A stretch of 56,985 nt of DNA. Source: a virus (Duplodnaviria; Caudoviricetes). Numbering within the stretch: the first letter of the stretch is position 1; every line of letters begins with the position of its first letter. The DNA is taken from positions 1 to 56,985 of the IMG/VR virus record IMGVR_UViG_3300017752_004327; one strand, given 5' to 3'. The notes below the pieces were generated by a model, which worked only from the letters and a program-made list of their open reading frames with translations, ran no database searches and was not told the DNA's origin. Below, piece by piece: positions 20,184-43,324 of this stretch. The translations under genes and the position numbers were made by a program.

Positions 20184-20210
20184 GTTATATTGTGGTTAAA
20201 TATGCTTATA

Positions 20211-21191
20211 ATGAATGATTTTACACTTATACCGTTTCAAAACATAGTAAGTTTTGGACAGAAAACTATGTTAGACCAGCCTTTATTCAATGTAAGTTGG
20301 ATACTTGGTCGCTTCTGTAATTACAGTTGTAGTTACTGTTGGCCGTATGCTAGAACGGATAAACCGGATCATCAAGGACTAGAAGTCTACAAAAACACGA
20401 TAGATGAAATCAAACGGCAGGCGAGAGAAAATGGTTTTACTGAATTCCATTTTAGTTTTAGTGGAGGCGAGCCTACTGCGTACAAAAACTTTGGAGAGCT
20501 CGTAGAGCATTACTGTAGTGATACAGCAGCACCTTATCAAAGTATTCATATGACCACTAATCTATCGCCAGGTAGCAAATGGTGGGCTAGATGGATAGAG
20601 TCAACTAGCCAACTACAACGTAGAAGTATCACTGCTAGTTTCCATTCTGAGTTTGCCAAAGAGCAAGAGTTTGGAGACAAGTGCTTACAACTTATAAATG
20701 AAGGAGTATTAGTTACTATCAACCAAGTAATGGTTCCTGACCATTTTGATGAATACTACGAAAGATGTCAACGGTTTTCAGATAGGGGTATTAACGTAAC
20801 ACTCAAACCACAAAGTGATCCAACTGCAAGTTTTATTGTTGATGGATACACTATGAACCAACATTTGAAAATGCAAGAACAATTTCCACAACACATCAAA
20901 GGCGAACAAGTAATGCAGATGTATTTTGAAGACCACAAAGGTAATGACTACGGATTGGATCAAGCAGAAAGAATGAATGCTTTTAACTTCAATAAGTTCA
21001 AAGGATGGAAATGCGCAGCAGGGTATCAAAGTTGCGTTATAAGGGGTGGTGAAGTTAAAAGGGCATATAGTTGTGCGGAAGAACCTTTAGGTACGCTACA
21101 AGACGGTTTTACGCTGTTTAAGACACCATCTAAGTGTATAACTAGTACCTGTGTTAGCTCTGCAGACAGTAAGATACCAAAATCGAAATGA
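20211..21191 (+). CDS. Radical SAM enzyme with C-terminal SPASM/twitch-like Cys region
   Basis: CNYSCSYC, SGGEPT, C-terminal WKCAAG..C...C..C; ATG 20211 lies 8 nt after TAAATA. Confidence 0.9.
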   Translation: MNDFTLIPFQNIVSFGQKTMLDQPLFNVSWILGRFCNYSCSYCWPYARTDKPDHQGLEVYKNTIDEIKRQARENGFTEFHFSFSGGEPTAYKNFGELVEHYCSDTAAPYQSIHMTTNLSPGSKWWARWIESTSQLQRRSITASFHSEFAKEQEFGDKCLQLINEGVLVTINQVMVPDHFDEYYERCQRFSDRGINVTLKPQSDPTASFIVDGYTMNQHLKMQEQFPQHIKGEQVMQMYFEDHKGNDYGLDQAERMNAFNFNKFKGWKCAAGYQSCVIRGGEVKRAYSCAEEPLGTLQDGFTLFKTPSKCITSTCVSSADSKIPKSK

Positions 21192-21796
21192 ATATAGATA
21201 TACAAGATATAAAATTTTGGATGGATGCAATTCGCAACAGCGATGATAGAAGCCGTACACTTGATAGTTTTTGGGGCGGCCAACTACAATCCAAAGAATG
21301 GTTAATACAAGCCTTAGAAAAGAAATCACGTATTGCCAATGCAAGGATTGTAATATTTGGCGGATGGAATGGTGTACTTGCAAGTATGCTGTTTAACAGT
21401 GACGTAGGTGTTAAGAATATTACTAGTGTAGACATTGATCCTACGTGTGAAGAAATTGCACGAACTATGAATAAGCGACAAGAAATGGAAGGTAAATTTG
21501 TAGCAGTCACAGAAGATATGTGTAACTTTTATTACCATTCAAAACCTGATATCGTAATTAATACTAGTTGTGAACATATGACAAAAGCAAAGTATAAAAA
21601 GTGGTTGCGAAATGTTCCGAAAGACTGTAAAATAGTACTACAAAGTAATGATTACAAAGAACTAGATGAACACATAAATTGTGTATCATCACTTAGTGAA
21701 TTTAAAAAAACAAGTGGTCTTGATTCTATTATGGAAGAAGGCGAATTACAATTACAGAAGTATAAAAGATTTATGCTAATAGGACACAAACATTAA
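21188..21796 (+). CDS. Class I SAM-dependent methyltransferase
   Basis: VIFGGWNG motif I, SVDID, DIVINTSCEH. Confidence 0.8.
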   Translation: MNIDIQDIKFWMDAIRNSDDRSRTLDSFWGGQLQSKEWLIQALEKKSRIANARIVIFGGWNGVLASMLFNSDVGVKNITSVDIDPTCEEIARTMNKRQEMEGKFVAVTEDMCNFYYHSKPDIVINTSCEHMTKAKYKKWLRNVPKDCKIVLQSNDYKELDEHINCVSSLSEFKKTSGLDSIMEEGELQLQKYKRFMLIGHKH

Positions 21797-22794
21797 TGTA
21801 TGCATTAGATGAAATAAGATCAATACATCTTGAAGTTACATCTAAGTGTCAGGCCAAGTGTCCGATGTGTCCACGTAGAATACAAGGTGGTCCATTATTA
21901 GATACGCTTTACCTAGAAGAGATTGATTTAGAAACCTTTGTTAATTGGTTTCCAAAGGACTTCGTAAGGCAGTTAGATGATTTGAATATGTGTGGAAATT
22001 TAGGCGATCCTATTATTGCAAAAGACACACTGGAAATATATAGATATTTAAGAGAAACAAATCCTTCAATGCATTTACAGATGCACACTAATGGAAGTGC
22101 AAGATCTTTTAGTTGGTGGAAAGAACTTGCAAGTTTAAATGTACGGGTAGTATTTGGTATAGATGGATTAGCGGATACACACGCACTATATAGAGTGAAT
22201 ACTGACTTTCTCAAGATTATACAAAATGCGAAAGCATTTATCTCTGCTGGAGGTGATGCACGTTGGGATATGCTAGTGTTCAAACATAATGAACACCAGG
22301 TACACGATTGTGAAACTATGAGTAAAAACTTAGGATTTACACATTTCTACACAAAGCATACTAGTAGATTCAGAGATGGTAAACTAGATGTTATAGATGA
22401 TAATTACAATGTAACGCACACATTGTATCCAACAACTCACAGTGATAAAAACAGTGAAGGTGTTGAACAAGCAAAACAAGATGTGTTACCAAACATTAGT
22501 TGTAAAGCACAAACAAACAATCAAATATATGTTACTGCTAATGGCGGTGTAAGTGCTTGCTGTTGGTTAGACTTAGAATGGGTTCCGCAGCATAGTTTTT
22601 CTCGTATTGATTATATGAGCAAAGTTAAAGAATATCCTAATCTAAATAATAAAAGTCTAAGCGAGATATTTGCAAGTGGCTTTTTTAGTAAAATATCAAG
22701 TTGTTGGACAACAACAGGTTTGAAAGAATGCACCAAGCAGTGCGGCAACTTTGATAAATTAAATAAACAGTTTGTAGAGGTGAAACAACAGTGA
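21796..22794 (+). CDS. Radical SAM enzyme with C-terminal SPASM/twitch domain
   Basis: CQAKCPMCPR, CGNLGDP, HTNG, GIDG, C-terminal C...G.V..CC...C...CG. Confidence 0.9.
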   Translation: MYALDEIRSIHLEVTSKCQAKCPMCPRRIQGGPLLDTLYLEEIDLETFVNWFPKDFVRQLDDLNMCGNLGDPIIAKDTLEIYRYLRETNPSMHLQMHTNGSARSFSWWKELASLNVRVVFGIDGLADTHALYRVNTDFLKIIQNAKAFISAGGDARWDMLVFKHNEHQVHDCETMSKNLGFTHFYTKHTSRFRDGKLDVIDDNYNVTHTLYPTTHSDKNSEGVEQAKQDVLPNISCKAQTNNQIYVTANGGVSACCWLDLEWVPQHSFSRIDYMSKVKEYPNLNNKSLSEIFASGFFSKISSCWTTTGLKECTKQCGNFDKLNKQFVEVKQQ

Positions 22795-24113
22795 CTACTA
22801 GTAAAACTTTTTGCCCGTTACCGTGGATACATATGGCTACGAGACCTAACGGTGATGTTAGAGTCTGTTGTACAGCCAATGCTAGTGGTGCAGGAACAAA
22901 AGATAATAAAACAGCAGGCCTTGTAAAGAAAGATGGTATCGCTATGAACTTGCGAGATCATAGTATTGAAGAAGTATGGAATAGCGAACATATGCGTAAT
23001 ACAAGATTGCAAATGTTAAACGGTGAAGTACCTGTAAGTTGTACCAAATGCTTTGAAGAAGAAAGCAATGGAGTAGTAAGTAAAAGACAATGGGAAACAC
23101 GTGAATGGAAAGGAAAAATTAATATGGAAAACCTTGTTGATAAAACACAAGAAGATGGTAGTTTGGAAGTTGACATTCCGTACTTTGATTTACGTTTAGG
23201 AAATGTATGTAACTTGAAGTGTACTATGTGTTCACCGCACGATAGTTCCAGTTGGATCAAAGACTGGAAACTACAACAACCTGAATATAAAGATCCACTG
23301 CTTGCAAGCGATCAAGATTGGGATCAAAACTTTGATTACACTTGGTACAAGAAAGGAAGTTTCCTTGAAAGTATGATGGAACAGGCCGGTAACATTCAAC
23401 AGTTATACTTTGCAGGCGGAGAGCCATTAATGATTCCAGAGCATTGGAAAATTTTACAAGAATTAATTGCAGAAGGTCACGCAAAAAATATTAAGTTAAG
23501 ATACAACACTAATGGACATCCAGACAGTGCTATGAAGGCTGTAAACTATTGGAACCATTTTAAAGAAGTAGTTGTTAATTTTAGTCTTGATGGTACACAA
23601 TATGTAAACTCATACATTAGATATCCTAGTGATTGGCTTCAAACAATAGCATCATTACGATATATGGTTAATCAAGTAGACAAAAAACATCAGGTTAATA
23701 TTGCGTGTGCAGTACAAGCACTTAACGCACTTGATCTTGTAGATCTTGTAGATTGGAGTATAAAGAGAAATGATGTCAATAACAAAAGAACACATATGGC
23801 TGCGCCTTTCATAAACACGCATTTAGTATACTTCCCAAGTTATATGAATATCAAAGTGCTGCCTATGGAAATTAAAAATCAAGTACGAAGAAAGATTGAA
23901 GATTTTATTATACGCAACAGTAAAGACAAATACTTCAACGATCATCCAATGGGCAAACAACGTTGGGAAGGAATTATTAAGTTTATGTATTCAGAAGATT
24001 GGAGTGATAAACTTCCTGCACTAGTTGAGTATCTAGGCAGTTGTGATAAAACAAGAGGAACTAACTGGAGAGAAACATTTCCAGAGTTAGCGGCAGCAAT
24101 TGATGGACAATAA
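22791..24113 (+). CDS. Radical SAM enzyme with N-terminal twitch-like domain
   Basis: CPLPW..G.VRVCC..CTKC, then CNLKCTMC, FAGGEPL, YNTNG, SLDG. Confidence 0.9.
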   Translation: MTTSKTFCPLPWIHMATRPNGDVRVCCTANASGAGTKDNKTAGLVKKDGIAMNLRDHSIEEVWNSEHMRNTRLQMLNGEVPVSCTKCFEEESNGVVSKRQWETREWKGKINMENLVDKTQEDGSLEVDIPYFDLRLGNVCNLKCTMCSPHDSSSWIKDWKLQQPEYKDPLLASDQDWDQNFDYTWYKKGSFLESMMEQAGNIQQLYFAGGEPLMIPEHWKILQELIAEGHAKNIKLRYNTNGHPDSAMKAVNYWNHFKEVVVNFSLDGTQYVNSYIRYPSDWLQTIASLRYMVNQVDKKHQVNIACAVQALNALDLVDLVDWSIKRNDVNNKRTHMAAPFINTHLVYFPSYMNIKVLPMEIKNQVRRKIEDFIIRNSKDKYFNDHPMGKQRWEGIIKFMYSEDWSDKLPALVEYLGSCDKTRGTNWRETFPELAAAIDGQ

Positions 24114-24759
24114 TGAAATAGAAAGAGCATTGCGTTGGCAAAGTCTAGTAAACTTAGGCAACCAGGTTAAACTGAAATGGAGTATAGACCATTATGCTGT
24201 TGAGAAACAGTTAGAGCAGTTTAACAACAACTGGTGTCCTTACAATGCAAAGAAAGATACACACAACAATCGTTGGGGATTACCTATTACAAGTCATACA
24301 GGCGATGTTATGGACAACTATCATCTTAATAGTTTTGGCCATATGCAAAAGTATCACGATGTAGAAATGAAGGAAGAAAACTTTAATACTCCTACTGAAG
24401 TGTATCATAAGATTCCTGAACTTAAAAAATTAGTTGATCTATTCAATCCAGATATTGGCCGTGTACACCTAGTACGTGTAGACCAAGGAGGATTCTTTCC
24501 TCCACACAGAGATTTCCACGGTACTAGTCCAGAGTATTTTAGACTGTTAGTTGTATTTGGACGTTGTAGTCCTGAAAACTATGTTCAACTTATTGACGGC
24601 AAACCTTTGTATCCCGAAGCAGGTTACGTATACTTTACTAACTTCCAATTAGATCATAGTGTGTTTAGTTTTAGTGATAATTTGTACAGTCTTATTTTAA
24701 CAGTAAAACTTAATGAGCGTACACAACAACTAATATTAGACAACACGATGGCAGAATGA
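24103..24759 (+). CDS. Asp/Asn beta-hydroxylase-like Fe(II)/2OG oxygenase
   Basis: GRVHLV..GGFFPPHRD (HxD), distal H in DHSVF. Confidence 0.7.
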   Translation: MDNNEIERALRWQSLVNLGNQVKLKWSIDHYAVEKQLEQFNNNWCPYNAKKDTHNNRWGLPITSHTGDVMDNYHLNSFGHMQKYHDVEMKEENFNTPTEVYHKIPELKKLVDLFNPDIGRVHLVRVDQGGFFPPHRDFHGTSPEYFRLLVVFGRCSPENYVQLIDGKPLYPEAGYVYFTNFQLDHSVFSFSDNLYSLILTVKLNERTQQLILDNTMAE

Positions 24760-25661
24760 AGTTAACATATCAACAAAGTTCAAAAGAAAATTGGTTTTTA
24801 GTTAGTTGGACACTGTCTAACAAGTGTAACTATCGCTGCTCCTATTGTCCTGAACATTTACATAGTGGTAGCACAGGACAGCCTCGTTGGGAAACTGTTG
24901 AAAGATTTGTCAAAAATTTTACAGTACCCGGTAAAGACATATGCTATAGATTAAGCGGTGGCGAACCTACATACTGGAAACACTTTATGGATCTTGCTAA
25001 ACTTGTAAAAGCACAAGGGCATACATTTAGTTTTTTAACAAACGGCAGTAGAACTCCTGAATACTATAAAGAGATATCACAACACACTGATGGTTTTATT
25101 ATTTCTTATCATCCGGAGTATGCAGAAGTAACACATATCAAGGAAGTAATTAATGCAAGCGAGTGTCCTGTGTTTATTAATTTGATGCTGGCTCCTGAAA
25201 ATTTTAATGAGATGTTTGACATTGCAGAAGAACTATATCAATGTAGTGATAACGTAACTGTGTGGCCTAAAATAATTTTAGACAAGTCAAATGTAGATGC
25301 TATTACAAACAAACCTGCAAACTACACACAAGAACAACTAGACACTATTGGCAATTGGCCGTACTTTAGAAACTTACCAGATGTTAATTTACACAGAGGT
25401 GAACTAATGTTAGATGAGGCTCCAGTAACAGCAAACAATTTAATTGCCAACAATCAAAATACATTCTATGGTTGGAAGTGTTGGGCAGGACTACATATGA
25501 TTAATGTTGATATGTGGGGCAACATATATAGAGCTGACTGTAAAGAAGGCGGAGCATTAGGTAATATTGAACGCTATAAGTTGCCTACTGAAACTGTGCA
25601 GTGTGGTAAAGCAGTTTGTGCTTGTCTAAGCGATATCTATCTAAGAAAAGAGACTACTTAA
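24756..25661 (+). CDS. Radical SAM enzyme with C-terminal SPASM-like domain
   Basis: CNYRCSYC, SGGEPT, TNGSR, WKCWAG..C..LG..C...CAC. Confidence 0.9.
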   Translation: MKLTYQQSSKENWFLVSWTLSNKCNYRCSYCPEHLHSGSTGQPRWETVERFVKNFTVPGKDICYRLSGGEPTYWKHFMDLAKLVKAQGHTFSFLTNGSRTPEYYKEISQHTDGFIISYHPEYAEVTHIKEVINASECPVFINLMLAPENFNEMFDIAEELYQCSDNVTVWPKIILDKSNVDAITNKPANYTQEQLDTIGNWPYFRNLPDVNLHRGELMLDEAPVTANNLIANNQNTFYGWKCWAGLHMINVDMWGNIYRADCKEGGALGNIERYKLPTETVQCGKAVCACLSDIYLRKETT

Positions 25662-26726
25662 TTCAGGACATACATCAAGTATGTCTGTACCACGCAACTC
25701 ATCTACCTTACGTGTAAAGTCGACAAACTGTTCTAGTTGTATAGGACTGTCTTTGTGTCTGTATCCTGTTCCGTCAAGTATATGTTCAGGCAGTATTTGA
25801 GGATTTAGATAAGCCGGTGTTGTAACTACATTGTTTACATACAATTCGTAGTGCGGTTTTTTAATGCTGTAAAACCAATCTACAATATCTTTAACGTGGC
25901 ACACATTGTACGTCATAATAGTACCTGCAAAAATAAGTCTGTCCATTTTGTCTAGTTGCTGTAAGTTATCTACTAGTTGTTCAAACGGAAAGTTGTCGCC
26001 GCCTCTTATATATTCATACAGTTTGCCGGTGCCTTCAATACTAATGTGCCATTTAGTTTCTTTGAACTGATGTGCTAGTTCATCAAATTCTAAATCTACA
26101 ACAGTACCATTAGTGCTTATATCAAGTGTAATATTTTTTGCAAGATCAAGTTCAATTAGTTTTTGCATAATCTGTTTGTTAGCAGGTTCCATATATGGTT
26201 CACCGCCTTTAATATTAACATACTGTAAGTTCTTAAAATATTGAGGATATTCAAATAGTCTATCTACTATGTCAGGACTTAGATTTCTGTAACCAAAGTC
26301 AGGTTCGTGTATGGGTCGTTGTACGCCCATTTTGTCTAGTTTTAAATCTTCTTTGATCCAAGCAGTACTGTTTACACCACTACACATTCTGCACTTGAGA
26401 TTACACAGATTACTCATATTAAATTCTAAGAAATATATGTCATTTCGTAAGTTGCTCTCTGGTTTTAGCATAGGATTTAGAACTTGTTCAAAAAACTTTC
26501 TTCTGCTATGTCCGTTGGTGCTTTCTTTCAGTGTACATTGTGAACAGTTACTAGGAAACTGTCCTGATGCAATTGTACGTTGTGTATGTATCAATCCAGG
26601 ATTTCGTAAAATAGTAGGCAAGTCTTCCTTGAGTAAGTTACCGTGACGTCCTGTATAAACGCAGTCCGGTACAACATCTCCGTTGAATCTAATACTAAGA
26701 GCGTGCCAAGGTGCATAACACTTCAT
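25641..26726 (-). CDS. Radical SAM enzyme with N-terminal twitch-like domain
   Basis: CYAPW..G..PDC..CSQC, CNLKCRMC, KGGEP, STNG, SIEG. Confidence 0.9.
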   Translation of the reverse strand: MKCYAPWHALSIRFNGDVVPDCVYTGRHGNLLKEDLPTILRNPGLIHTQRTIASGQFPSNCSQCTLKESTNGHSRRKFFEQVLNPMLKPESNLRNDIYFLEFNMSNLCNLKCRMCSGVNSTAWIKEDLKLDKMGVQRPIHEPDFGYRNLSPDIVDRLFEYPQYFKNLQYVNIKGGEPYMEPANKQIMQKLIELDLAKNITLDISTNGTVVDLEFDELAHQFKETKWHISIEGTGKLYEYIRGGDNFPFEQLVDNLQQLDKMDRLIFAGTIMTYNVCHVKDIVDWFYSIKKPHYELYVNNVVTTPAYLNPQILPEHILDGTGYRHKDSPIQLEQFVDFTRKVDELRGTDILDVCPELSSLFS

Positions 26727-27840
26727 ATGTCAAGTCCTCCTTAATATGATACAACTGATGCTGCGAAGAAATAGTGTCGTAACCTATTACACAAAGTTTG
26801 TCATTGTGTATAATTGGTCTTCCAAATAACGTGTGTTCAAAAAATATACTTTGTATTTCATCTCCATCTTTGTTTATTCTAAATATAGGACAACTAGGAG
26901 TTCCGGCTGGCATAAAATACGCATACCCTTTGTATTCAATACCACTGCGATATCTATACTTGCCGCCGTGTGTAATGCCGATATCAAACTGTTTGCTTTC
27001 TTTTGTAACAGTATTAAATACCAGTCCCCAATTACTTTCCCCGTGTTCTGTTCCATAAGGTAGTGCAACTATATTATCGCCTACAAGCACACCACCGTTA
27101 TATTTTTTAGCAAAGTCTACTCCGTTCATATTATGATATGTAGCAGTGTTTGTTTCTGTATCAAACTCTACAATAGTGTTAAGTCCTTTAGTTTCTCCAA
27201 ATGGTAAACTGTATAGTGTTTTATCTTTAACAACAATATCGCTGTATTTTCTAGTAATATTAGGATCAACTTCTAGTTCGTAACTTGCAAACTTTTCTCC
27301 ATCAAAACTTAATAAACTTGTGTATCCTGGTTCGTCACCTCTTGGCATACTCCAGTATCGCCCATTGCAATATACTGTACCCATATGCAGTTTTTTACCT
27401 TGATAGGGTAACGGGTGTATAGATAGTTTTCCGTCTTTGATATAGATAGCATTGTTTGTGCCTTCGTACCCTAATGGAAAACTAAAAGCAGTATTCCATT
27501 CATAGTTTGTTGCTACACTGTAGTATTGTCCTTTGCCTGTAAACGGTAGTTTATGTTTTACAATTGCGCCAGGTTTTATTTCAGTAACAATGTTAAGGTC
27601 ATCATATATTCCGTAGGGTATAAGCCAAGCACTATCTCCTAAGACTGCAACAGCATTTGTTTTACTAGTACTAGGTGGTAAATCTAAATCAACACACTTT
27701 CCATCTATCCATACATCGCTGTAACTTTTACACAAGTTAGTAGCAAACGGAGGACTTAATAACTTGCCGTTATAATTAAAAAGTAATAGATGTTTAATCT
27801 TAGTTTCTTTATAATGATCTTGAAATTCTTTATATGCCAT
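26695..27840 (-). CDS. Beta-propeller (Kelch-like) repeat protein
   Basis: About 6 repeats of K(Y/L)...(Y/W)xxP(Y/F/R/L)G...hhxhD. Confidence 0.6.
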   Translation of the reverse strand: MAYKEFQDHYKETKIKHLLLFNYNGKLLSPPFATNLCKSYSDVWIDGKCVDLDLPPSTSKTNAVAVLGDSAWLIPYGIYDDLNIVTEIKPGAIVKHKLPFTGKGQYYSVATNYEWNTAFSFPLGYEGTNNAIYIKDGKLSIHPLPYQGKKLHMGTVYCNGRYWSMPRGDEPGYTSLLSFDGEKFASYELEVDPNITRKYSDIVVKDKTLYSLPFGETKGLNTIVEFDTETNTATYHNMNGVDFAKKYNGGVLVGDNIVALPYGTEHGESNWGLVFNTVTKESKQFDIGITHGGKYRYRSGIEYKGYAYFMPAGTPSCPIFRINKDGDEIQSIFFEHTLFGRPIIHNDKLCVIGYDTISSQHQLYHIKEDLTYEVLCTLARS

Positions 27841-37598: not shown

Positions 37599-38334
37599 AA
37601 TAGGCGTAAGGGGAAGTAAACTAGCAATTGCATACGCTGATCGTGTATGTGCAGAACTTAATTGTAGTACTGAGATAATTGCTATTAAAACAGAAGGCGA
37701 TCTAAACCCAGATACTCCAATACACGAAATTGGCGGCAAGGGTGTATTCTGTAGTGCTATTGAAAAAGCATTGTTGGAAGGGTCTATTGATGTTGCTGTA
37801 CACAGTTTAAAAGATATCCCAGGAGATATAGAAACAGAGGGATTGGAAATATCTGCTGTACTAGAACGTAACAGACCTTATGATGTCCTTATAGGTAAAG
37901 TGTTTGATGGATTTGTATTAGGTACAAGCAGTCCAAGGCGCAAGGCACAACTAGAAGAATTGTATGCTGATCAGCACATACAAATAAAACCTATAAGAGG
38001 TAATATAGATACAAGACTTGCAAAACTAGATGCAGGCGAATATGATGCTATTGTCCTTGCAGAAGCAGGATTAGATGCATTAGATATTAAAAGAGACTAT
38101 GAACGCTTATCTATTACACCAGCAGTTGGACAAGGAATCATTGCACTACAAACAAGAACAGGCAGTGATGCAAGTAATATTGTTAAAGAGATAAATCACG
38201 ATCTAACATATAGACAAGCAATGTTAGAAAGAGCATTACTAAAAGGTATAGGCGGTGATTGCACAACTAAGGTTGCAGCATTTGCAAGTGAAGACAATCC
38301 TATTAAACTAGAGGCTGTGTATTACAATGCTTAA
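37588..38334 (+). CDS. hemC: Porphobilinogen deaminase (hydroxymethylbilane synthase), C-terminally short
   Basis: RGSKLA, GGKGVF, VHSLKD, GTSSPRRKAQL, IRGNIDTRL, LAEAGL, PAVGQG, GGDC (cofactor Cys). Confidence 0.92.
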   Translation: MTIKIGVRGSKLAIAYADRVCAELNCSTEIIAIKTEGDLNPDTPIHEIGGKGVFCSAIEKALLEGSIDVAVHSLKDIPGDIETEGLEISAVLERNRPYDVLIGKVFDGFVLGTSSPRRKAQLEELYADQHIQIKPIRGNIDTRLAKLDAGEYDAIVLAEAGLDALDIKRDYERLSITPAVGQGIIALQTRTGSDASNIVKEINHDLTYRQAMLERALLKGIGGDCTTKVAAFASEDNPIKLEAVYYNA

Positions 38335-38977
38335 ACGCTATTTAGAAAAACACGATCCTATTGATTTAGGTTGGAGATACAAGCGTTGGTTTCCAGTCGA
38401 TGTTGAAAAAATGCAATCGTGGTATAAAGACTTAGAAGATAGTTATAGTGATTGGAAGTTTATTGTTGGGGACAATCAGCATATATGGCAGGAACCTATT
38501 GTTGACCCTGCAGGTATAACAGGACATCGCTTAATGGACGACACATCATATTATACATTGTGTTGGAACAGTGATGAAGCAGGACCAAAACCATTTGAAC
38601 AAGGACAAGCGAAACCAGAGTACAGAGATAATGATGATGACAATCTAAATCCACGCAAATGTTTTAGTGGGTATGCATTAGATATTGTACAGAATTTACC
38701 TGTGCGTAGTAAAAAATGGTTAGTTACAATACATACACCTGGGACTAAATTAATTACTCATCAAGACTCGCCTGATAAAATTAGAGTACACATTCCAATA
38801 TACACAAACAAGGATAGTAATTGGATTATAGATGGTGAAGAAATACATATGGAGCCAGGTTGGGCATACCTAGTAAATACTACATTACCACACAGTGTGG
38901 AAAATAAAGGTACTACAGAAAGAATACACTTATACGGCAAAGTATGGACTAACGATGTTAAGGAACTAGATATATGA
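38327..38977 (+). CDS. Asp/Asn beta-hydroxylase-like Fe(II)/2OG oxygenase
   Basis: PGT...HQD, RVHIPI.TN, YLVNTTLPHSVEN.G..ERIH. Confidence 0.85.
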   Translation: MLKRYLEKHDPIDLGWRYKRWFPVDVEKMQSWYKDLEDSYSDWKFIVGDNQHIWQEPIVDPAGITGHRLMDDTSYYTLCWNSDEAGPKPFEQGQAKPEYRDNDDDNLNPRKCFSGYALDIVQNLPVRSKKWLVTIHTPGTKLITHQDSPDKIRVHIPIYTNKDSNWIIDGEEIHMEPGWAYLVNTTLPHSVENKGTTERIHLYGKVWTNDVKELDI

Positions 38978-39585
38978 AGGTAGTAATTATCGGCGGCAAA
39001 GAAAGTGGTATAGCACCAGGCATTCATAATATGAATAATTGGTTACACGAATATTTTGCACAATATGATCTAGTACAATTGAGCAGAGTTACAGGTTACG
39101 ATCTTGACACCAAGTACGATGAAATAGTTGAGATAGCAAGAACTGCTGATATCTTTATTAACAGTGCGTGTGTAAAAGATTACCAAATAAAACTATTAGA
39201 TGATGTGTACGGACACGTTCCGTTCCTAATATGTTTAGGAAGTATTGCAGGTGATATGTATCCTGCTCCTCAAAACTATCCCAATCATCCTAACTATCCA
39301 GAAGTAAAACATAAATTAAAAGAGCGTTGTAAGTGGATACAGTTAGAGAAACAAGATGCTACTACTAACTTATTGCATCTAAATGTTACAGAAACTGAAG
39401 ATCATAAGTATAACGTAAAAGGGTTACAACAGCCACAGTTGTTTAAAATATTAGATTTTTGGTTTGATAATCCTTACATAGCAAATATGGACTTAAAGTT
39501 TTGGACAGAAAGTTATGTTAAAGAATATAAACAAAAGAAAATAAAAGGAATTATAGATTATTTTAATAATCAGAGGAACAAATGA
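38974..39585 (+). CDS. Short-chain dehydrogenase/reductase-like protein
   Basis: VVIIGG..SGI, DIFINSA, LGS, YPEVK (YxxxK). Confidence 0.65.
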   Translation: MKVVIIGGKESGIAPGIHNMNNWLHEYFAQYDLVQLSRVTGYDLDTKYDEIVEIARTADIFINSACVKDYQIKLLDDVYGHVPFLICLGSIAGDMYPAPQNYPNHPNYPEVKHKLKERCKWIQLEKQDATTNLLHLNVTETEDHKYNVKGLQQPQLFKILDFWFDNPYIANMDLKFWTESYVKEYKQKKIKGIIDYFNNQRNK

Positions 39586-40517
39586 AAACTATACTACAGA
39601 GAACTATTAAAGATAGAGAAACAAATTTATACCCTGTTTGGTTGATGCGTCAAGCAGGAAGGTATATGCCTGAGTATATGCAAATGAAACAAAACAGTAA
39701 TGGATTTTTAGATATGGCACTTACTCCACACAAGGCCAAAGAAATTACTTTGCAACCTATTAATGCATTTGATATGGATGCAGCAATAATTTTTTCTGAT
39801 ATACTTATTATTCCTTATGCACTTGGACAAGAGTTAGATTATACTCCTTCACCAGTACTTGGACCATTCAACGAAAAAATGTTTGAAACTGATATGTGGA
39901 CGTTTGTGAAAAAATGTCAACCTGTGTACGATGCAATTAAACAGACTAGAGTAAAACTAAATGAAAGTAAAAGTTTAATCGGATTTGCAGGAGCACCTTA
40001 TACACTTTGCAAATATATGACAAAGACTAAAAATCGAAATGTTGTAGATAAACTAGTTCCATACATTGTGGAACACCTATCAAAACAAATTGATGCAGGT
40101 TGTGATACAATACAGATATTTGATAGTTGGGCAGGAGATTTGTCAGATCAAGAACTAGATACTTTATGTTATAAACCAACAGCAAAGATAGTAAATGCTA
40201 TTAGACGTCAATATCCTCAAGTAGGCATCATTGCTTTTCCAAGGTTAATAGGCAAAAACATAAATGAGTTCGCTGACATTGTAAAACCTGATTGTATTAA
40301 TTTAAGTGATGATATTCCTGTTGAAGACGTTACTACTGATGTTGTGTTACAAGGTGGTATTCCTTGGCAAGGATTATTAGTCAATGAAGACATTACTCCT
40401 ATGCTGCAAAAAATGAAAGACAAATCATATATTGTTAATCTAGCACACGGAGTTAATAAAGAAACTCCGGTAGTAAATGTTAAGAACTTTGTACAAACTG
40501 TGAAAGATTTTAGATGA
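39582..40517 (+). CDS. hemE: Uroporphyrinogen decarboxylase
   Basis: PVWLMRQAGRYMPEY, DAAIIFSDIL, LIGFAGAPYT, QIFDSWAG, LQGG, NLAHGV. Confidence 0.93.
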   Translation: MKTILQRTIKDRETNLYPVWLMRQAGRYMPEYMQMKQNSNGFLDMALTPHKAKEITLQPINAFDMDAAIIFSDILIIPYALGQELDYTPSPVLGPFNEKMFETDMWTFVKKCQPVYDAIKQTRVKLNESKSLIGFAGAPYTLCKYMTKTKNRNVVDKLVPYIVEHLSKQIDAGCDTIQIFDSWAGDLSDQELDTLCYKPTAKIVNAIRRQYPQVGIIAFPRLIGKNINEFADIVKPDCINLSDDIPVEDVTTDVVLQGGIPWQGLLVNEDITPMLQKMKDKSYIVNLAHGVNKETPVVNVKNFVQTVKDFR

Positions 40518-41104
40518 TAAGAGAAACAAAAAAACTTAATACAACTGTTGATATTAGTGAACTGCAAAATTACTATGCACAGTTAGAAACAGAATATCAA
40601 CATTTGTGTTGGCGATACCAAGACAACGTTAGCCAAGGTGTAGGCGGACATATATTTGATGATGCATATGGTTGGGCATTGCAAAGTAATTTAGAAGATC
40701 TAACTGTACCTTGCCCTCCATATAATATAACAGAAGAGCGTAAAATGCATCCATACAGAGATACTGAAATGATGTTTGGTGTTGTAAGTAGATTACAAGA
40801 AGCATTTCCTTTTGCACACCAATTCAGTGTTGCTGTACACCCGCCAGGGACATTTATTAATTTTCATAGTGATAGCGATAACTATCTTAAAGTGCATATA
40901 CCTATCTTAACTAACAGTAAAGCATACTTCCAATTTCAGCCTATGCGTAGGTTCGTATTGCCAGCAGACGGAAGTATGTTTCTTGTAAATACTAATATTA
41001 AACACGGTACACACAACGAAGGTGATACTGATAGAATACATCTATACTTCAAAATACCTGTAGACAAGGAAAAAGAAGTGTTAGATAAGGAAGGTAACAT
41101 ATGA
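40514..41104 (+). CDS. Asp/Asn beta-hydroxylase-like Fe(II)/2OG oxygenase
   Basis: PPGT.I.FHSD, KVHIPI.TN, LVNT..KHGTHN.G..DRIH. Confidence 0.85.
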   Translation: MIRETKKLNTTVDISELQNYYAQLETEYQHLCWRYQDNVSQGVGGHIFDDAYGWALQSNLEDLTVPCPPYNITEERKMHPYRDTEMMFGVVSRLQEAFPFAHQFSVAVHPPGTFINFHSDSDNYLKVHIPILTNSKAYFQFQPMRRFVLPADGSMFLVNTNIKHGTHNEGDTDRIHLYFKIPVDKEKEVLDKEGNI

Positions 41105-41391
41105 TATTTTGGATAGGATTTATGGTAATGGTTTTAAACGAAGGGTTTGTAATTATGAGACACGTACACCCTTGGTTCGCTAACAAAAGAGATCATCTTA
41201 TCGCAAAGTATGGTACGAATTGGAAGAAGTTTCACGGTGCATTAGATTATGTTTGGATAGTTGGTATAACATTAGGTATAGCAGTAGACATTGCTAACTG
41301 GAAGTTCTATGCTACAGTATTAGCAACCTTTTGGACTGTTGTGGGCGTTTGCGTATATCTGCCATTACTAATTAAAAGGTTACGAAAATGA
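41101..41391 (+). CDS. Small membrane protein
   Basis: Three hydrophobic segments; NEGFVIMRH and FH..LD..W motifs. Confidence 0.7.
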   Translation: MIFWIGFMVMVLNEGFVIMRHVHPWFANKRDHLIAKYGTNWKKFHGALDYVWIVGITLGIAVDIANWKFYATVLATFWTVVGVCVYLPLLIKRLRK

Positions 41392-42095
41392 GAGTAATAC
41401 AAAACTATGATCCTAAAGATATAACAATGGACTTGTTATACAATGACGATACGTGGGGTGCTATTGAATTAAACGTTGATTTAGATATCGATCAATTACA
41501 AAGTTATTATTTTGATATCAAAAATAAACACAGCCACCAGTATTTTAACTTCCAAGATTTTCCTGAAAGATTATCTATAGAAATTAGTAAACAGTATATG
41601 GAACTAGGATACTGCGGATATTACTGCGGACCTATAGCAGGATATACACTTGCGTGGCCTGTAGAACGTTATGAACCTATACCACCTTCTAGTCAAGCAA
41701 ATGTTGATATGTTTCCAGAAACACTTGATCCAGAATTTTATGAAAAGTGTAATGTGTTGCCTAGGTTTAGATTTGGTTATATGAATACACTATTAGATAT
41801 GTTAGGTGAAGATAGTTTTAAACAGTGTATTATAACAGAACACGGTCCTGAGGCTACAATTCAAACACACAAAGATTCAAATGCTAAAAAGTTACATATA
41901 CCTTTGGCAACTAATGAACAAGCCTTGTTTACATTTGGTGAAAACAGAGAAGTAAAATTTAATATGCGTGTGGGCAAGATATACATTCTGAATACAAGTG
42001 CATTTCACGGAACAGAAAACTACGGCGAATCAACTAGAGCGCATTTTATTACAAGAGTAGATGAAACTCGTATACAAGATGTTATAGCACTATAA
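41388..42095 (+). CDS. Asp/Asn beta-hydroxylase-like Fe(II)/2OG oxygenase
   Basis: THKD, KLHIPL.TN, YILNTS.FHGTEN.G..TRAH. Confidence 0.8.
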   Translation: MRVIQNYDPKDITMDLLYNDDTWGAIELNVDLDIDQLQSYYFDIKNKHSHQYFNFQDFPERLSIEISKQYMELGYCGYYCGPIAGYTLAWPVERYEPIPPSSQANVDMFPETLDPEFYEKCNVLPRFRFGYMNTLLDMLGEDSFKQCIITEHGPEATIQTHKDSNAKKLHIPLATNEQALFTFGENREVKFNMRVGKIYILNTSAFHGTENYGESTRAHFITRVDETRIQDVIAL

Positions 42096-42638
42096 GCCTA
42101 AAGACTTATTTCTTTCTTCATAATACTTACTAACATTAATACGCCACAAATTTTGTTGAACATTATACAGTTCCATCTGTCTGTCTAATTCCCATATACC
42201 ACGCTTTGCCATTAATGGCATTAGTGTATTATTCATACGTTGACTTTTTCCGCCGTCATCGTTTATGTTTGTACTAATGTATAATTGTGTTAAATGCGGT
42301 ACCCATTCTATTTGCATTTTTAATAAATGTCCTAATTGAATTCCTGTCTTTAACATATCTTTACCTACGCCTAGTGTATATCCAGGTAACTGCGCACCTC
42401 GAAACAAACAACGATATGCATCAGGTCCTAATTCGTCTAACTGATGTACACCTGCAATACTTACAATTTTATCTTCGTGTGTAGCAATAGTCCAAGCACC
42501 TTCTTCTAGTACCCATTCCCATTTCATTTTTTTAAGAGATGTATTATTACTATAGTTTTGTGATTTACAAAATTGTTCTGCTAAAGACTCATCGTCTTGA
42601 GTAGCAAATCTAAACTGTAGTTTTCCAAGTGTCGCCAT
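42090..42638 (-). CDS. GNAT-like acyltransferase
   Basis: FRFAT..D start, IVSIAG, RCLFRGAQLPGY..G motif A-like segment. Confidence 0.5.
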   Translation of the reverse strand: MATLGKLQFRFATQDDESLAEQFCKSQNYSNNTSLKKMKWEWVLEEGAWTIATHEDKIVSIAGVHQLDELGPDAYRCLFRGAQLPGYTLGVGKDMLKTGIQLGHLLKMQIEWVPHLTQLYISTNINDDGGKSQRMNNTLMPLMAKRGIWELDRQMELYNVQQNLWRINVSKYYEERNKSLGL

Positions 42639-43281
42639 TTAATTTTTTCATCCGTTGTGCAAAGCGACAAGGACCTAATTTAAATAAGTCGCCTGTTGCT
42701 TTTCCGTTTATATAACATTGTTGCAAGTCGCCGCTGTATCCGCCAGCAGGCATAAACATAATATGATACCGGTCTTGATCAACTGTAGATAGGTCAAACT
42801 CTGGTGTGTTGTATCCAACAAATACCGGCGGAGGAACTTCTGTCATACCATACCAGTTAGCAACTGTTTGTACACCCTTGCTTGTAAATGCATCTATAAA
42901 GTCTTGTGTAATAGTACTACTTCCTGTAACCATATAGCGTACACAGCTCATATCTAAATCAGCAAAGCCTTTTGTATTTTTAAGCAGTTCTAGATGTTTT
43001 GGTATAAGTGATAGATATGTAGGTTGGAACTTCTTAAAGTTTTCTATATAACTGTAAGGATTGAAGTTTGCACTTAGTAGTTTCGCACCTGCTAGTTGTG
43101 CAGGATACGCTGTAATAGTATAGTGTGCAATTGTGTTTGCTGGAAACACATCTAATACTCTATCTTGAGATGTAAGTTGTATTTCTTTGATACTGGCTGC
43201 TGCACATTCTTTTATATAATCCCAAGAGTGTGTTACCTGTTTTGGTTCGTCAGTACTACCGGAAGTGAATAAAGTCAGCAT
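42610..43281 (-). CDS. Minimal AMP-binding (ANL/adenylation) enzyme core
   Basis: LFTSGSTDEPK (A3 P-loop), YGMTE (A5), TGDL (A7); only 223 aa. Confidence 0.8.
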   Translation of the reverse strand: MLTLFTSGSTDEPKQVTHSWDYIKECAAASIKEIQLTSQDRVLDVFPANTIAHYTITAYPAQLAGAKLLSANFNPYSYIENFKKFQPTYLSLIPKHLELLKNTKGFADLDMSCVRYMVTGSSTITQDFIDAFTSKGVQTVANWYGMTEVPPPVFVGYNTPEFDLSTVDQDRYHIMFMPAGGYSGDLQQCYINGKATGDLFKLGPCRFAQRMKKLNGDTWKTTV

Positions 43282-43324
43282 ACTATAATTTATGCTGACT
43301 TTTGTTTATTCTAAGTTAATCTGA

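What the first reader, a model, noticed from the sequence alone, without database searches (positions are those of the whole stretch)
20197..43292. 23-kb phage island of 9 radical-SAM enzymes, 6 Asp/Asn-hydroxylase-like oxygenases and tailoring enzymes: candidate late-expressed virion or metabolite modification system
Seen: 9 CxxxCxxC radical-SAM genes with extra Cys clusters, 6 HxD...H jelly-roll oxygenases, a methyltransferase, an SDR, a mini-kinase, a GNAT, an adenylation core, two propellers, hemC and hemE, with almost no intergenic space. Four of its five start junctions/directions carry a T4-late-like TAAATA/TAAGTA/TAAATT (20197, 31362, 33341-33354 both ways, 43287), and the island abuts a tail-fibre gene (43325). 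Known: SPASM/twitch enzymes (anSME, AlbA, PqqE, MftC, NirJ, AhbC/D) modify peptides, proteins or cofactors, and AspH-type enzymes hydroxylate protein side chains. Inference: this is a biosynthetic-cluster-like system expressed at assembly time that decorates virion proteins (or their glycans) or makes a small molecule. I found no RiPP precursor ORF inside it, which favours structural proteins as substrates. I do not know of a characterised phage pathway of this composition.
Basis: partly seen in the sequence, partly recalled or inferred. Interest (0 to 1): 0.92.

Follow-up and report, generated by a model that had tools for sequence, protein, structure and literature searches.

The report
Radical-SAM and hydroxylase island in marine phage
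A 23-kb block of a large uncultivated marine T4-like phage packs nine radical-SAM enzymes, six iron-dependent hydroxylase-like enzymes and a sugar-transferase-like protein; related phages and some predatory bacteria carry the same kit, which most likely builds or remodels a surface sugar-containing molecule whose identity is unknown.

Summary
The gene inventory is real. Nine radical-SAM genes in three old families, six HxD...H cupins, hemC, hemE and a short adenylation-like protein sit with almost no intergenic space at 20190-43281. HMMs did not confirm the SDR and GNAT calls. The canonical T4 late box TATAAATA is absent from the window. The phage's own enriched box ATAAATA never occurs inside the island, only one-mismatch versions at its operon heads.

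The island is conserved in order at 50-90% protein identity in many IMG/VR contigs of a T4-like clade with an estimated genome of about 350 kb. It ends at the same fibre-like gene wherever that end was seen.

hemC and hemE are separable insertions, so this is not a tetrapyrrole pathway.

A 491-aa protein models as a GT-A-like plus methyltransferase-like enzyme. Its relatives are repeatedly fused to PF05118 cupins, and it is predicted to bind the neighbouring cupin.

The same rSAM families, cupins and GT-MT protein co-occur in Bdellovibrionota genomes, beside lipid- and sugar-tailoring enzymes.

Best reading (0.45): a glycoconjugate-tailoring island linked to host recognition. Virion-protein modification remains a live rival (0.25). 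Expression timing is untested.

The parts
20190..21191 (+). radical SAM, family A (viperin/MoaA-like N-terminus, Cys-rich C-terminus)
   Evidence: PF04055 53.4 bits. CxxxCxxC at residue 43 and 11 Cys; paralogue of 24756 and 31374. 64-100% identical homologues in 29 distinct complete ORFs in the fetched loci. About 50% identical to Bdellovibrionota genes.
21188..21796 (+). small class-I methyltransferase-like protein
   Evidence: Methyltransf_25 19.2 bits, below cut-off. Conserved next to the rSAM genes in 80 of 95 loci at >=50% identity. 36% identical homologue in bacterial locus L103.
21796..22794 (+). radical SAM, family B (C-terminal SPASM)
   Evidence: PF04055 31.9 and SPASM 22.3 bits. 30% identical paralogue of 32338.
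22791..24113 (+). N-terminal-twitch radical SAM (NF033640)
   Evidence: NF033640 412.9 bits, cut-off 170. AF2 model pLDDT 90.7. Nearest solved folds are anSME, BlsE and SuiB.
24100..24759 (+). cupin, divergent paralogue of the PF05118 set
   Evidence: No Pfam hit. BLASTP links to 38327 and 35427. H-x-D...H kept; the Arg after the distal His is missing.
24756..25661 (+). radical SAM, family A
   Evidence: PF04055 49.4 bits; paralogy.
25641..26726 (-). N-terminal-twitch radical SAM (NF033640)
   Evidence: NF033640 234.2 bits.
26695..27840 (-). Kelch-like propeller, paralogue of the next gene
   Evidence: BLASTP repeats against 27830. Conserved at 49-87% in 19 distinct complete ORFs in the fetched loci.
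27830..29065 (-). Kelch-like propeller
   Evidence: PF24681 25.2 bits, below the cut-off of 50.
29034..29492 (-). 152-aa kinase-like protein
   Evidence: APH 16.5 bits, below cut-off. HGD...N...DWD motif visible. Conserved at 43-88% in 20 distinct complete ORFs in the fetched loci.
29467..30501 (-). N-terminal-twitch radical SAM (NF033640)
   Evidence: NF033640 215.6 bits.
30498..31379 (-). 293-aa protein of unknown fold, partner of the GT-MT/cupin pair
   Evidence: No Pfam or Atlas hit. Homologues lie between the GT-MT and cupin genes in bacterial loci L124 and L125. The domain is fused to GT-MT family members.
31374..32357 (+). radical SAM, family A
   Evidence: PF04055 44.8 bits; 13 Cys.
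32338..33342 (-). radical SAM, family B (C-terminal SPASM)
   Evidence: PF04055 39.5 and SPASM 28.8 bits.
33375..34670 (+). N-terminal-twitch radical SAM (NF033640)
   Evidence: NF033640 210.9 bits. PF04055 28.1 bits, just under cut-off.
34621..35439 (+). PF05118-like cupin
   Evidence: PF05118 19.5 bits, below cut-off. Paralogue of 41388 at E 1e-29. Triad kept.
35427..36122 (+). PF05118 Fe(II)/2OG cupin, partner of the GT-MT protein
   Evidence: PF05118 54.4 bits. Predicted to bind 36123 (score 0.68, best control 0.00). 43-44% identical bacterial homologues next to GT-MT genes.
36123..37598 (+). 491-aa two-domain protein: GT-A-like N-domain, class-I methyltransferase-like C-domain
   Evidence: AF2 pLDDT 92.7. 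Foldseek domain-level matches to GT-A transferases and methyltransferases. 6 of 10 long relatives are fused to PF05118.
37588..38334 (+). hemC (porphobilinogen deaminase), short form; separable insertion
   Evidence: PF01379 206 bits. The cofactor-Cys motif GGDC aligns with E. coli GGC, and most of domain 3 is missing. No match in the closest relative L090 or in records G001, G002 and G004.
38327..38977 (+). PF05118 cupin
   Evidence: 46.7 bits.
38974..39585 (+).
   Evidence: Only an N-terminal VIIGGxxSGIA motif. No Pfam hit at E<=0.1. Hits in 4 of 95 loci.
39582..40517 (+). hemE (uroporphyrinogen decarboxylase); separable insertion
   Evidence: PF01208 226 bits. Also found in T4-like contigs without the island.
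40514..41104 (+). PF05118 cupin
   Evidence: 32.0 bits.
41101..41391 (+). 96-aa hydrophobic, probably membrane, protein
   Evidence: Sequence shows hydrophobic stretches. 76-84% identical copies next to rSAM-B in L019 and L022.
41388..42095 (+). PF05118 cupin
   Evidence: 33.1 bits.
42090..42638 (-).
   Evidence: No Pfam hit at E<=0.1.
42610..43281 (-). 223-aa adenylation-core-only protein
   Evidence: AMP-binding 66 bits, profile positions 168-330 of 384. Starts at the TSGSTxxPK loop. A 222-aa, 64% identical copy sits beside the fibre-like gene in G001.
43325..44791 (-). fibre-like protein with Mtd_N domain: the island's conserved right neighbour, not an island enzyme
   Evidence: Mtd_N 28.5 bits. 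An exact ATAAATA box lies upstream at 44841. Homologues sit at the island's right end in G001, G004 and G005.

Best explanation
The island is a conserved, co-inherited enzyme kit of a clade of uncultivated marine T4-like jumbo phages. It sits in the variable host-recognition part of the structural region and has four layers.

1. A radical-SAM module: three anciently diverged families (4 N-terminal-twitch NF033640, 2 C-terminal-SPASM, 3 of a third Cys-rich type) plus a small methyltransferase.
2. A hydroxylase-transferase module: PF05118-type Fe(II)/2-oxoglutarate cupins working with a 491-aa GT-A-like/methyltransferase-like protein and a 293-aa partner.
3. Accessories: two Kelch-like propellers, a kinase-like protein and a short adenylation core.
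4. Unrelated auxiliary genes that have landed inside it: hemC, hemE and a Rossmann-like protein.

Inferred mechanism: a sugar-containing acceptor (nucleotide-sugar, glycolipid/LPS-type molecule, or a glycan already on a carrier) is glycosylated and O-methylated by the GT-MT protein. It is hydroxylated by the bound cupin and its paralogues, and further altered at unactivated carbons by the radical-SAM enzymes (dehydrogenation, epimerisation, C-methylation or C-C bond formation). The product is an unusual surface glycoconjugate that affects adsorption or superinfection.

Shown: gene content, conservation, fusions, the predicted cupin/GT-MT contact, and co-occurrence in bacteria. Inferred: the substrate class, every reaction, and the place where the product ends up.
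For: Conservation. 133 of 135 candidate IMG/VR stretches encode a relative of the 22791 rSAM. The order 20190-21188-21796-22791-24100-24756-25641-26695-27830-29034-29467-32338-35427-36123 is largely kept, with local rearrangements and insertions, at about 45-90% identity in the 20 long loci centred on it and in G001. The protein has 4302 relatives at E<=1e-5, on contigs up to 379 kb.

Module 2. The 36123 model has pLDDT 92.7. Its domain-level Foldseek matches are to GT-A transferases: best PDB hit the PBCV-1 capsid glycosyltransferase at E 3.6e-3, prob 0.99; in BFVD, GT25/GT2/GT34 and an FkbM methyltransferase. Of 10 long family members, 6 are fused to PF05118, 1 to a radical-SAM domain, 1 to GNAT, 1 to RibD_C, and 1 has no Pfam hit. 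The predicted 36123+35427 complex scores 0.68 against a best control of 0.00. That mark was reached by 58 of 80 solved complexes and 2 of 110 mismatched pairs; runs agree in >=97% of contacts and partner pLDDT is >=84. My own alignments were used, so those counts hold only roughly. The u293 domain is fused to GT-MT relatives.

Phage records. PF05118 has 3-6 copies in 4 of 4 island-bearing records and 0 in the island-less G003.

Bacteria. In 301 genomes of one phylum, NF033640 is over cut-off in 78, PF05118 in 37 and the GT-MT family in 10. Overlaps are 24/37, 8/10 and 9/10 (Fisher p 9e-8, 4e-4, 2e-8, not corrected for phylogeny). Bacterial clusters hold the same three rSAM families (10 rSAM genes in a row in L123) together with FA_desaturase, FA_hydroxylase, TauD, GT1 and GT2 genes.

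Window flanks. A KdsA-type synthase, a CTP_transf_3 cytidylyltransferase, a PMM-like HAD and a glycosyltransferase.

Literature. In PMC7029224 (passages read) this region of pelagimyophages holds LPS-type genes and radical-SAM cassettes.
Against: No substrate is identified.

The GT-A similarity is domain-level and weak: no PDB match at E<=0.001 and TM 0.18/0.38. A DxD motif was not checked.

The nearest solved folds of the twitch rSAM include protein- and peptide-modifying enzymes (anSME, SuiB, SkfB) as well as a nucleoside-sugar enzyme (BlsE), so they do not decide.

PF05118 is named for protein Asp/Asn hydroxylases.

The island always abuts a fibre-like gene, which fits a protein target equally well.

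The bacterial trio loci L124 and L125 gave no recognisable sugar or lipid context.

The co-occurrence statistics ignore shared ancestry.
Confidence: 0.45

Rival explanations
1. Virion-protein modification. The cupins hydroxylate side chains of the adjacent fibre or baseplate proteins. The GT-MT protein glycosylates and methylates the new hydroxyl. The SPASM/twitch radical-SAM enzymes add crosslinks, epimerisations or oxidations during assembly.
For: The island's right end abuts the Mtd_N fibre-like gene in every lineage where that end was seen. In G001 its left end abuts large structural genes. A hydroxylase fused or bound to a glycosyltransferase matches the logic of collagen lysyl hydroxylase/glycosyltransferase enzymes (recalled, not tested). 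The best fold match of the twitch rSAM is the protein-modifying anSME. The best fold match of 36123 is a capsid-glycosylating viral enzyme. One-mismatch late-type boxes stand at 5 of 6 operon heads.
Against: The same enzyme families cluster in non-viral bacterial genomes. The adjacency is shared by descent within one clade, so it counts once. No collagen-like or Cys-rich repeat substrate was found in the window's proteins. The exact late box is absent from the island. Other fusion partners of the GT-MT family (GNAT, RibD_C reductase) point to small-molecule or sugar chemistry.
Confidence: 0.25
2. A diffusible small molecule (secondary-metabolite-like, for example an aminoglycoside- or nucleoside-type or lipid product) made during infection to act on the host or on competitors. 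The island would not be physically linked to virion or envelope.
For: Cluster-like density of tailoring enzymes. The short adenylation core. BlsE, GDGT-MAS and viperin-like enzymes are among the twitch rSAM's fold neighbours. TauD and fatty-acid desaturase/hydroxylase genes lie in the bacterial clusters. PMC12801897 (passages read) notes an rSAM next to a sugar aminotransferase and an amidinotransferase in a cyanophage. PMC2853527 (passages read) notes five-rSAM modules with an amidinotransferase in Campylobacter phages.
Against: No scaffold-forming enzyme (PKS, NRPS, cyclase, aminotransferase) is in the window's island. The adenylation piece lacks its N- and C-terminal parts. No exporter is present.
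Confidence: 0.15
3. Tetrapyrrole (heme-type) pathway: hemC and hemE together with NirJ/AhbC/AhbD/HemN-like radical-SAM enzymes make or modify a porphyrin.
For: hemC and hemE are bona fide (206 and 226 bits). hemC keeps the cofactor Cys. In some relatives hemC sits between the methyltransferase and the twitch rSAM.
Against: No hemC match in the 85-90% identical relative L090. hemC is also absent from G001, G002 and G004, present in G005, and present in G003, which has no twitch rSAM. No rSAM reaches the NCBIfam cut-off for any heme-pathway family: the best is 28.6 bits against cut-offs of 500-650. No hemD, hemB or chelatase was seen in the window.
Confidence: 0.03
4. Nucleic-acid hypermodification: the oxygenases, kinase-like protein, methyltransferases and rSAMs decorate phage DNA bases.
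For: A thymidylate-synthase-like gene (18717-19379) and a PTPS/QueD-like gene (14328-14777) lie in the left flank. A kinase-like protein and methyltransferases are in the island.
Against: No base-exchange, glycosylase or DNA-binding domain was found. QueE models score far below cut-off. The bacterial homologue clusters carry lipid and sugar enzymes.
Confidence: 0.05

Closest known systems
Host recognition cluster (hypervariable structural-region island) of pelagimyophages and cyanomyophages (PMC7029224; passages read)
   Same: T4-like marine myovirus. Large variable block inside the structural region, next to tail-fibre genes. Holds LPS-type genes. [quoted passage not shown]
   Different: That paper gives no anatomy or function for the cassettes. 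Here the island is not hypervariable within its clade but syntenic at about 45-90% identity. The phage belongs to a larger-genome lineage: G001 is 268 kb at an estimated 75% completeness. That lineage has no DNA match, and three of its proteins (167-2071, 35427, 20190) have no protein match, in the isolate-phage collection.
Campylobacter phages CP220/CPt10: 11-12 radical-SAM genes, exchangeable five-rSAM module (PMC2853527; abstract and passages read)
   Same: T4-like phages with an unusually large number of rSAM genes grouped in a module of unknown role. rSAM-B 21796 has a weak tblastn match to a CP220 rSAM (24.6% identity, E 1e-9).
   Different: Those modules carry an amidinotransferase, and the passages read do not mention cupins or the GT-MT protein. 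The twitch rSAM found no Campylobacter-phage match at E<=1e-5.
Chlorovirus PBCV-1 capsid-glycan glycosyltransferase (PDB 2P6W/2P72/2P73)
   Same: Best PDB fold match of the N-domain of 36123. A virus-encoded GT-A enzyme. That the full-length chlorovirus protein also carries a methyltransferase domain is recalled, not tested here.
   Different: Similarity is weak (E 3.6e-3, about 150 aligned columns, 8% identity). No family membership is shown.
Collagen lysyl hydroxylase/glycosyltransferase enzymes (human LH3, mimivirus L230) (recalled, not tested)
   Same: A 2OG/Fe(II) hydroxylase and a GT-A domain in one polypeptide or complex, which suggests hydroxylation coupled to glycosylation.
   Different: The hydroxylase family differs (PF05118 here). 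These enzymes were not among the 39 PDB matches printed (ranks up to 50). No collagen-like repeats were found in the window.
SPASM/twitch radical-SAM enzymes with solved structures (anSME, BlsE, SuiB, SkfB)
   Same: Radical-SAM core plus an auxiliary Fe-S domain. They are the nearest folds to the 22791 model (E 1.6e-5 to 1e-4).
   Different: The auxiliary Cys cluster is N-terminal (C8, C26, C84, C87 before the CxxxCxxC at 140). TM is only 0.3-0.44. NF033640 carries only the generic name 'twitch domain-containing radical SAM protein'. One literature search on that name found nothing specific to the family.
PF05118 family (AspH; lipid hydroxylases LpxO/OlsC and free-proline hydroxylase are recalled members)
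   Same: 4 of 6 cupins pass the Pfam cut-off and all 6 keep the iron triad. The only PDB sequence hit of 35427 is L-proline cis-4-hydroxylase (E 0.0024).
   Different: Short soluble proteins of 196-272 aa without TPR or membrane parts. The substrate is unknown.

Membership tests
Radical SAM superfamily (PF04055) | CxxxCxxC cluster motif and a Pfam score over 29.5 bits | tested here: met
   Motif in 9 of 9. Score over cut-off in 8 of 9; 33375 scores 28.1 bits.
N_Twi_rSAM (NCBIfam NF033640) | Whole-protein score over the curated 170 bits | tested here: met
   22791 412.9, 25641 234.2, 29467 215.6, 33375 210.9 bits. The other five rSAMs score 25.9-48.9 bits and are not members.
N_Twi_rSAM (NCBIfam NF033640) | N-terminal auxiliary Cys cluster ahead of the radical-SAM core | tested here: met
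   C8 invariant and C26, C84, C87 nearly invariant in 28 aligned sequences, with the CxxxCxxC at 140-147. Pfam SPASM hit at residues 8-87. Cluster binding itself is not testable here.
SPASM-domain radical SAM (PF13186, C-terminal) | SPASM score over 21.5 bits, C-terminal to the core | tested here: met
   21796: 22.3 bits at 236-316. 32338: 28.8 bits at 250-329.
Asp/Asn beta-hydroxylase family (PF05118) | Pfam score over 22.6 bits | tested here: inconclusive
   Met by 35427 (54.4), 38327 (46.7), 41388 (33.1) and 40514 (32.0). Not met by 34621 (19.5) or 24100 (no hit).
Asp/Asn beta-hydroxylase family (PF05118) | H-x-D...H iron triad | tested here: met
   Invariant in 6 of 6.
Asp/Asn beta-hydroxylase family (PF05118) | Hydroxylation of protein Asp/Asn (EGF-type substrate) | not testable with these tools
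   No substrate assay is possible. No EGF-like or Cys-rich repeat was looked for beyond a collagen-repeat scan that found none.
Porphobilinogen deaminase (HemC) | PF01379 score, catalytic Arg/Asp positions and the cofactor Cys | tested here: met
   206 bits. The alignment to E. coli and Vibrio enzymes keeps the KD, RR and RGN..R motifs and GG-x-C. The C-terminal domain is truncated (PF03900 22 bits, below 26).
Uroporphyrinogen decarboxylase (HemE) | PF01208 score over cut-off along the full profile | tested here: met
   226 bits, profile positions 6-345 of 346.
Heme-pathway radical SAM enzymes (HemN, AhbC, AhbD, NirJ) | NCBIfam equivalog score over cut-off (500-650 bits) | tested here: not met
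   Best scores are 15.7-28.6 bits.
RiPP maturation cluster | A precursor-peptide gene next to the maturases | tested here: not met
   Only three gaps of 25 nt or more at or inside the island, the longest 62 nt. Overlapping small ORFs and RRE domains were not examined.
T4-type late transcription unit | TATAAATA (or the window's own ATAAATA) box upstream of the operon | tested here: not met
   TATAAATA occurs 0 times in the window. ATAAATA occurs 9 times, none within 20190-43281. Only one-mismatch versions stand at 5 of 6 heads. Timing itself is not testable here.
GT-A fold glycosyltransferase | GT-A fold of the N-domain of 36123 | tested here: inconclusive
   Foldseek prob 0.99 but E 3.6e-3 and TM 0.18/0.37 against PDB. 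Several GT25/GT2/GT34 matches at E 2e-4 to 8e-3 in BFVD. No Pfam GT hit.
GT-A fold glycosyltransferase | DxD metal/nucleotide-sugar motif and transferase activity | not tested
   The motif was not mapped on the model. Activity needs an assay.
ANL adenylate-forming enzymes (PF00501) | Complete N-domain plus C-terminal domain | tested here: not met
   42610-43281 covers only profile positions 168-330 of 384 and has no AMP-binding_C. The short form is conserved in G001.

The most novel reading that the evidence does not exclude
Phages and predatory Bdellovibrionota share one toolkit: three radical-SAM families plus a hydroxylase-glycosyltransferase-methyltransferase complex. It hyper-modifies their prey-recognition fibres by side-chain hydroxylation coupled to O-glycosylation, with radical-SAM crosslinks or epimerisations. 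That would be a new class of enzymatic maturation of receptor-binding proteins, tuning host or prey range.
Probability: 0.12. Interest if true: 0.9.

Novelty: new variant of a known kind. Interest (0 to 1): 0.62.

Why it matters
This phage clade is common in aquatic metagenomes. The twitch rSAM alone has 4302 relatives at E<=1e-5, on contigs up to 379 kb. The clade spends about 23-30 kb on an enzyme set whose chemistry is unknown.

The work here turns 'many radical-SAM genes' into separable modules. It points to a small testable core: cupin 35427, the GT-MT protein 36123 and the 293-aa partner 30498. It also shows that culturable-type bacteria (Bdellovibrionota) carry the same modules, which opens a genetic route that the uncultivated phage does not offer.

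If the product is a surface glycoconjugate or a modified fibre, it bears on how abundant marine phages recognise hosts or block superinfection. NF033640, whose NCBIfam name gives no reaction, would gain a first functional context.

Tried and rejected
Searches that found nothing or too little.
- Megablast of the island against isolate phages: no match.
- tblastn of 167-2071, 35427 and 20190 against the phage collection: no match.
- tblastn of the twitch rSAM: only 5 distant records.
- PDB sequence searches: nothing for 22791. For 36123, 21796 and 35427 only single weak matches (lysozyme C at E 0.67; a peptidoglycan deacetylase at E 0.0082; L-proline cis-4-hydroxylase at E 0.0024).
- The genome contigs pattern scan found a single locus; the wider bacterial picture came from the genome search.
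- Atlas search for 30498: no usable hit.
- Cluster look-ups returned almost no names.
- PDB searches on two bacterial neighbours gave nothing, or a nitrilase/GNAT-like protein of no help.

Expression. One RNA-library run held 14% of the sampled words. Laying it gave contigs of a 90-95% similar relative over much of 26-44 kb. The tool states that contigs in an RNA library do not show transcription, so this is no evidence either way.

Rejected or not decided.
- Tetrapyrrole pathway rejected: hemC and hemE are separable, and no heme-type rSAM reaches a cut-off.
- RiPP reading is not favoured because there is no room for a precursor gene.
- Cyanophage origin is not supported: psbA in 0 of 5 related records, which are fragments.
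- The twitch-rSAM fold search did not discriminate between protein, sugar and lipid substrates.
- G006, which has eight twitch rSAMs, gave no PF05118 or GT-MT match, but it is an incomplete genome.

Limits.
- Supplements of PMC7029224 (tables of protein clusters) could not be seen and may list these genes.

Full report
WHAT THE WINDOW IS. The window is a whole IMG/VR record of 56,985 bp, rated 15% complete. Related large records carry a T4-type major capsid gene: G001 (268 kb, 75% complete), G002 and G003. That is 3 of the 5 records searched. None of the 5 has psbA.

The window holds a 2239-aa protein with a T4 gp9/10 N-domain and a fibre-like protein. It also holds many auxiliary genes: SOD, a PMM-like HAD, two or three 2OG oxygenases, a glycosyltransferase, a KdsA-type synthase, PTPS, a thymidylate-synthase-like gene, DnaK, a Rieske oxygenase, a cytidylyltransferase, an HD protein, ClpP and a cyclase. 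The isolate-phage collection has no DNA match. So this is an uncultivated T4-like phage with an estimated genome of about 350 kb.

THE OBSERVATION. The ORF map and HMM scans confirm nine radical-SAM genes. All-against-all BLASTP sorts them into three old families at 22-30% identity:
- A: 20190, 24756, 31374.
- B, with a C-terminal SPASM: 21796, 32338.
- N-terminal-twitch NF033640: 22791, 25641, 29467, 33375, at 211-413 bits against a cut-off of 170.

Four cupins pass PF05118, one is just under, and one is linked by paralogy. All six keep H-x-D...H. hemC, hemE and a short adenylation core are solid. The methyltransferase, kinase-like and Kelch-like calls are below cut-off but conserved. The 'SDR' and 'GNAT' have no HMM support. 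The island is almost gap-free.

PROMOTERS. TATAAATA is absent from the window, against 7.6 expected. The 7-mer ATAAATA occurs nine times. Seven of the 70 called genes have it within 60 nt upstream, including the baseplate gene, two fibre-like genes, SOD and DnaK. It is therefore probably this phage's late-type box. None lies inside the island.

That is more than chance if taken at face value, but they were picked after the fact and the mismatches fall at different positions. Timing stays open. The RNA-library data were contigs only.

CONSERVATION. 133 of 135 candidate viral stretches encode a relative of the 22791 rSAM. tblastn of all island proteins on the 95 fetched loci and a gene map of G001 show a syntenic core, with local rearrangements and insertions: rSAM-A, MT, rSAM-B, twitch, cupin, rSAM-A, twitch, two Kelch-like, kinase-like, twitch, rSAM-B, cupin 35427, and the 491-aa protein. 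Identity is about 45-90%.

The right end is the short adenylation protein and/or the Mtd_N fibre-like gene in the window, L090, L019/L022, G001, G004 and G005. In G001 the left end touches large structural genes. This matches the 'host recognition cluster' described for pelagimyophages and cyanomyophages, where radical-SAM cassettes were noted in passing (PMC7029224, passages read). Campylobacter T4-like phages with 11-12 rSAM genes are a second precedent (PMC2853527, abstract and passages read).

WHAT IS NOT PART OF IT. No hemC match lies between 36123 and 38327 in the 85-90% identical relative L090. hemC is also absent from G001, G002 and G004. It is present in G005, and in G003, which has no twitch rSAM and no PF05118. 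hemE likewise occurs in T4-like contigs without the island. No rSAM approaches a heme-family cut-off. The hem genes are therefore auxiliary genes that landed in the island. The hemC is a short form that keeps the cofactor Cys.

THE HYDROXYLASE-TRANSFERASE MODULE. The 491-aa protein has no Pfam hit but 467 representative relatives. Of 10 long ones, 6 are fused to PF05118, 1 to a radical-SAM domain, 1 to GNAT, 1 to RibD_C, and 1 has no hit.

Its AlphaFold model (76-row alignment, pLDDT 92.7) has an N-domain whose matches are GT-A transferases and a C-domain like class-I methyltransferases. The best PDB match is the chlorovirus capsid glycosyltransferase (E 3.6e-3, prob 0.99), but no PDB match reaches E<=0.001. 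BFVD adds GT25/GT2/GT34 and an FkbM methyltransferase, plus three full-length uncharacterised phage proteins at TM 0.67-0.78.

A complex prediction with cupin 35427 scored 0.68 against a best control of 0.00. That mark was reached by 58 of 80 solved complexes and 2 of 110 mismatched pairs; contacts agree in >=97% and partner pLDDT is >=84. My own alignments were used. This supports binding but does not show it.

The 293-aa protein 30498 has homologues between the GT-MT and cupin genes in two bacterial loci. Its domain is fused to GT-MT relatives (pairwise E 2e-7 and 6e-9).

BACTERIAL COUNTERPARTS. A pattern scan found one locus, titled as an Oligoflexia MAG. That genome has eight twitch rSAMs on four contigs, with housekeeping neighbours. 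In 301 genomes of its phylum:
- NF033640 is over cut-off in 78.
- PF05118 is over cut-off in 37.
- The GT-MT family is present in 10.

Overlaps are 24/37, 8/10 and 9/10 (Fisher p 9e-8, 4e-4, 2e-8). These figures are not corrected for shared ancestry. Of the 13 PF05118 genomes without a twitch rSAM, 12 have only one strong full-length match of a different, longer type.

The clusters contain the same three rSAM families (ten in a row in L123; rSAM-A about 50% identical to the phage's) and cupins. Among ten neighbour families that I could still scan, they also contain FA_desaturase, FA_hydroxylase, TauD, GT1 and GT2. The two modules also occur alone: G006 has only rSAMs, while L124 and L125 have only the trio.

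INTERPRETATION. The system is not virion-specific, because free-living bacteria have it. Its conserved centre is transferase-like. The other fusion partners and neighbours are typical of sugar and lipid tailoring.

I therefore favour a glycoconjugate-tailoring role (0.45). The product may sit on the virion or on the infected cell. The protein-modification reading (0.25) keeps real support: constant adjacency to a fibre-like gene, the hydroxylase-plus-transferase logic known from collagen-modifying enzymes (recalled), and anSME as the nearest fold of the twitch rSAM. Small-molecule (0.15), DNA-modification (0.05) and tetrapyrrole (0.03) readings follow.

NOVELTY. Radical-SAM cassettes in this genome region are in print, but searches for a description of this enzyme set found none. 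NF033640 carries only a generic name. I rate it a new variant of a known kind (phage surface/auxiliary tailoring islands), with a small chance of something categorically new.

Noticed in passing
window 20155-20183, minus strand: A perfect sigma-70 consensus (TTGACA, 17 nt, TATAAT; 12 of 12) points leftwards, away from the island, towards a small ORF and the thymidylate-synthase-like block. It may be an early promoter for the left-hand auxiliary genes.
   Followed up: no
window 8828, 10422, 16327, 44841, 44915, 48391, 50372, 52648 (minus strand) and 55886 (plus strand): ATAAATA occurs only nine times. Seven called genes have it within 60 nt upstream, while TATAAATA is absent against 7.6 expected. 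This looks like the phage's own late-type box, with avoidance elsewhere.
   Followed up: partly
window 43275-43300: An inverted repeat (8-bp arms, 10-nt loop) with T-rich runs on both sides lies between the fibre-like gene and the adenylation-core gene. It overlaps the latter's ATG, so it could be a two-way terminator or mean that the true start is further in (read; not folded).
   Followed up: no
window 37588-38334: The phage hemC is 248 aa and lacks most of the C-terminal domain while keeping the cofactor Cys. Homologues in related contigs are 273-280 aa.
   Followed up: partly
window 38329-38678: A contig of run X2 replaces 348 nt of cupin gene 38327 with 795 other letters. This indicates cassette-level variation among close relatives (table 5).
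   Followed up: no
window 13551-14327, 51732-52400, 11458-12177, 12736-13539: A KdsA-type synthase, a CTP_transf_3 cytidylyltransferase, a PMM-like HAD phosphatase/mutase and a glycosyltransferase flank the island. Together they could supply an activated 3-deoxy-ulosonic acid.
   Followed up: no
window 48424-50310, 53651-54211, 9851-10408, 50416-51477, 56254-56964: The phage encodes DnaK (64-65% identical to Pseudomonas, Salmonella and Acinetobacter sequences present in the phage collection), ClpP, Fe/Mn SOD, a Rieske-type oxygenase and an adenylate/guanylate cyclase domain protein.
   Followed up: no
genomes G006-G304 (phylum of the Oligoflexia-titled MAG): NF033640 twitch radical-SAM genes are strongly expanded: 78 of 301 genomes over cut-off, many with 5 or more copies, and four to ten rSAM genes in a row in some loci. 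In L096 and L101 they sit beside an ABC transporter with ABC_transp_aux and DUF4340 proteins.
   Followed up: partly
L120 14932-15729 and 18283-19206; G001 148932-149816 and 156620-157294: A further protein family of about 225-305 aa without a Pfam hit is shared between a bacterial cluster and the G001 phage island, but is absent from the window.
   Followed up: no
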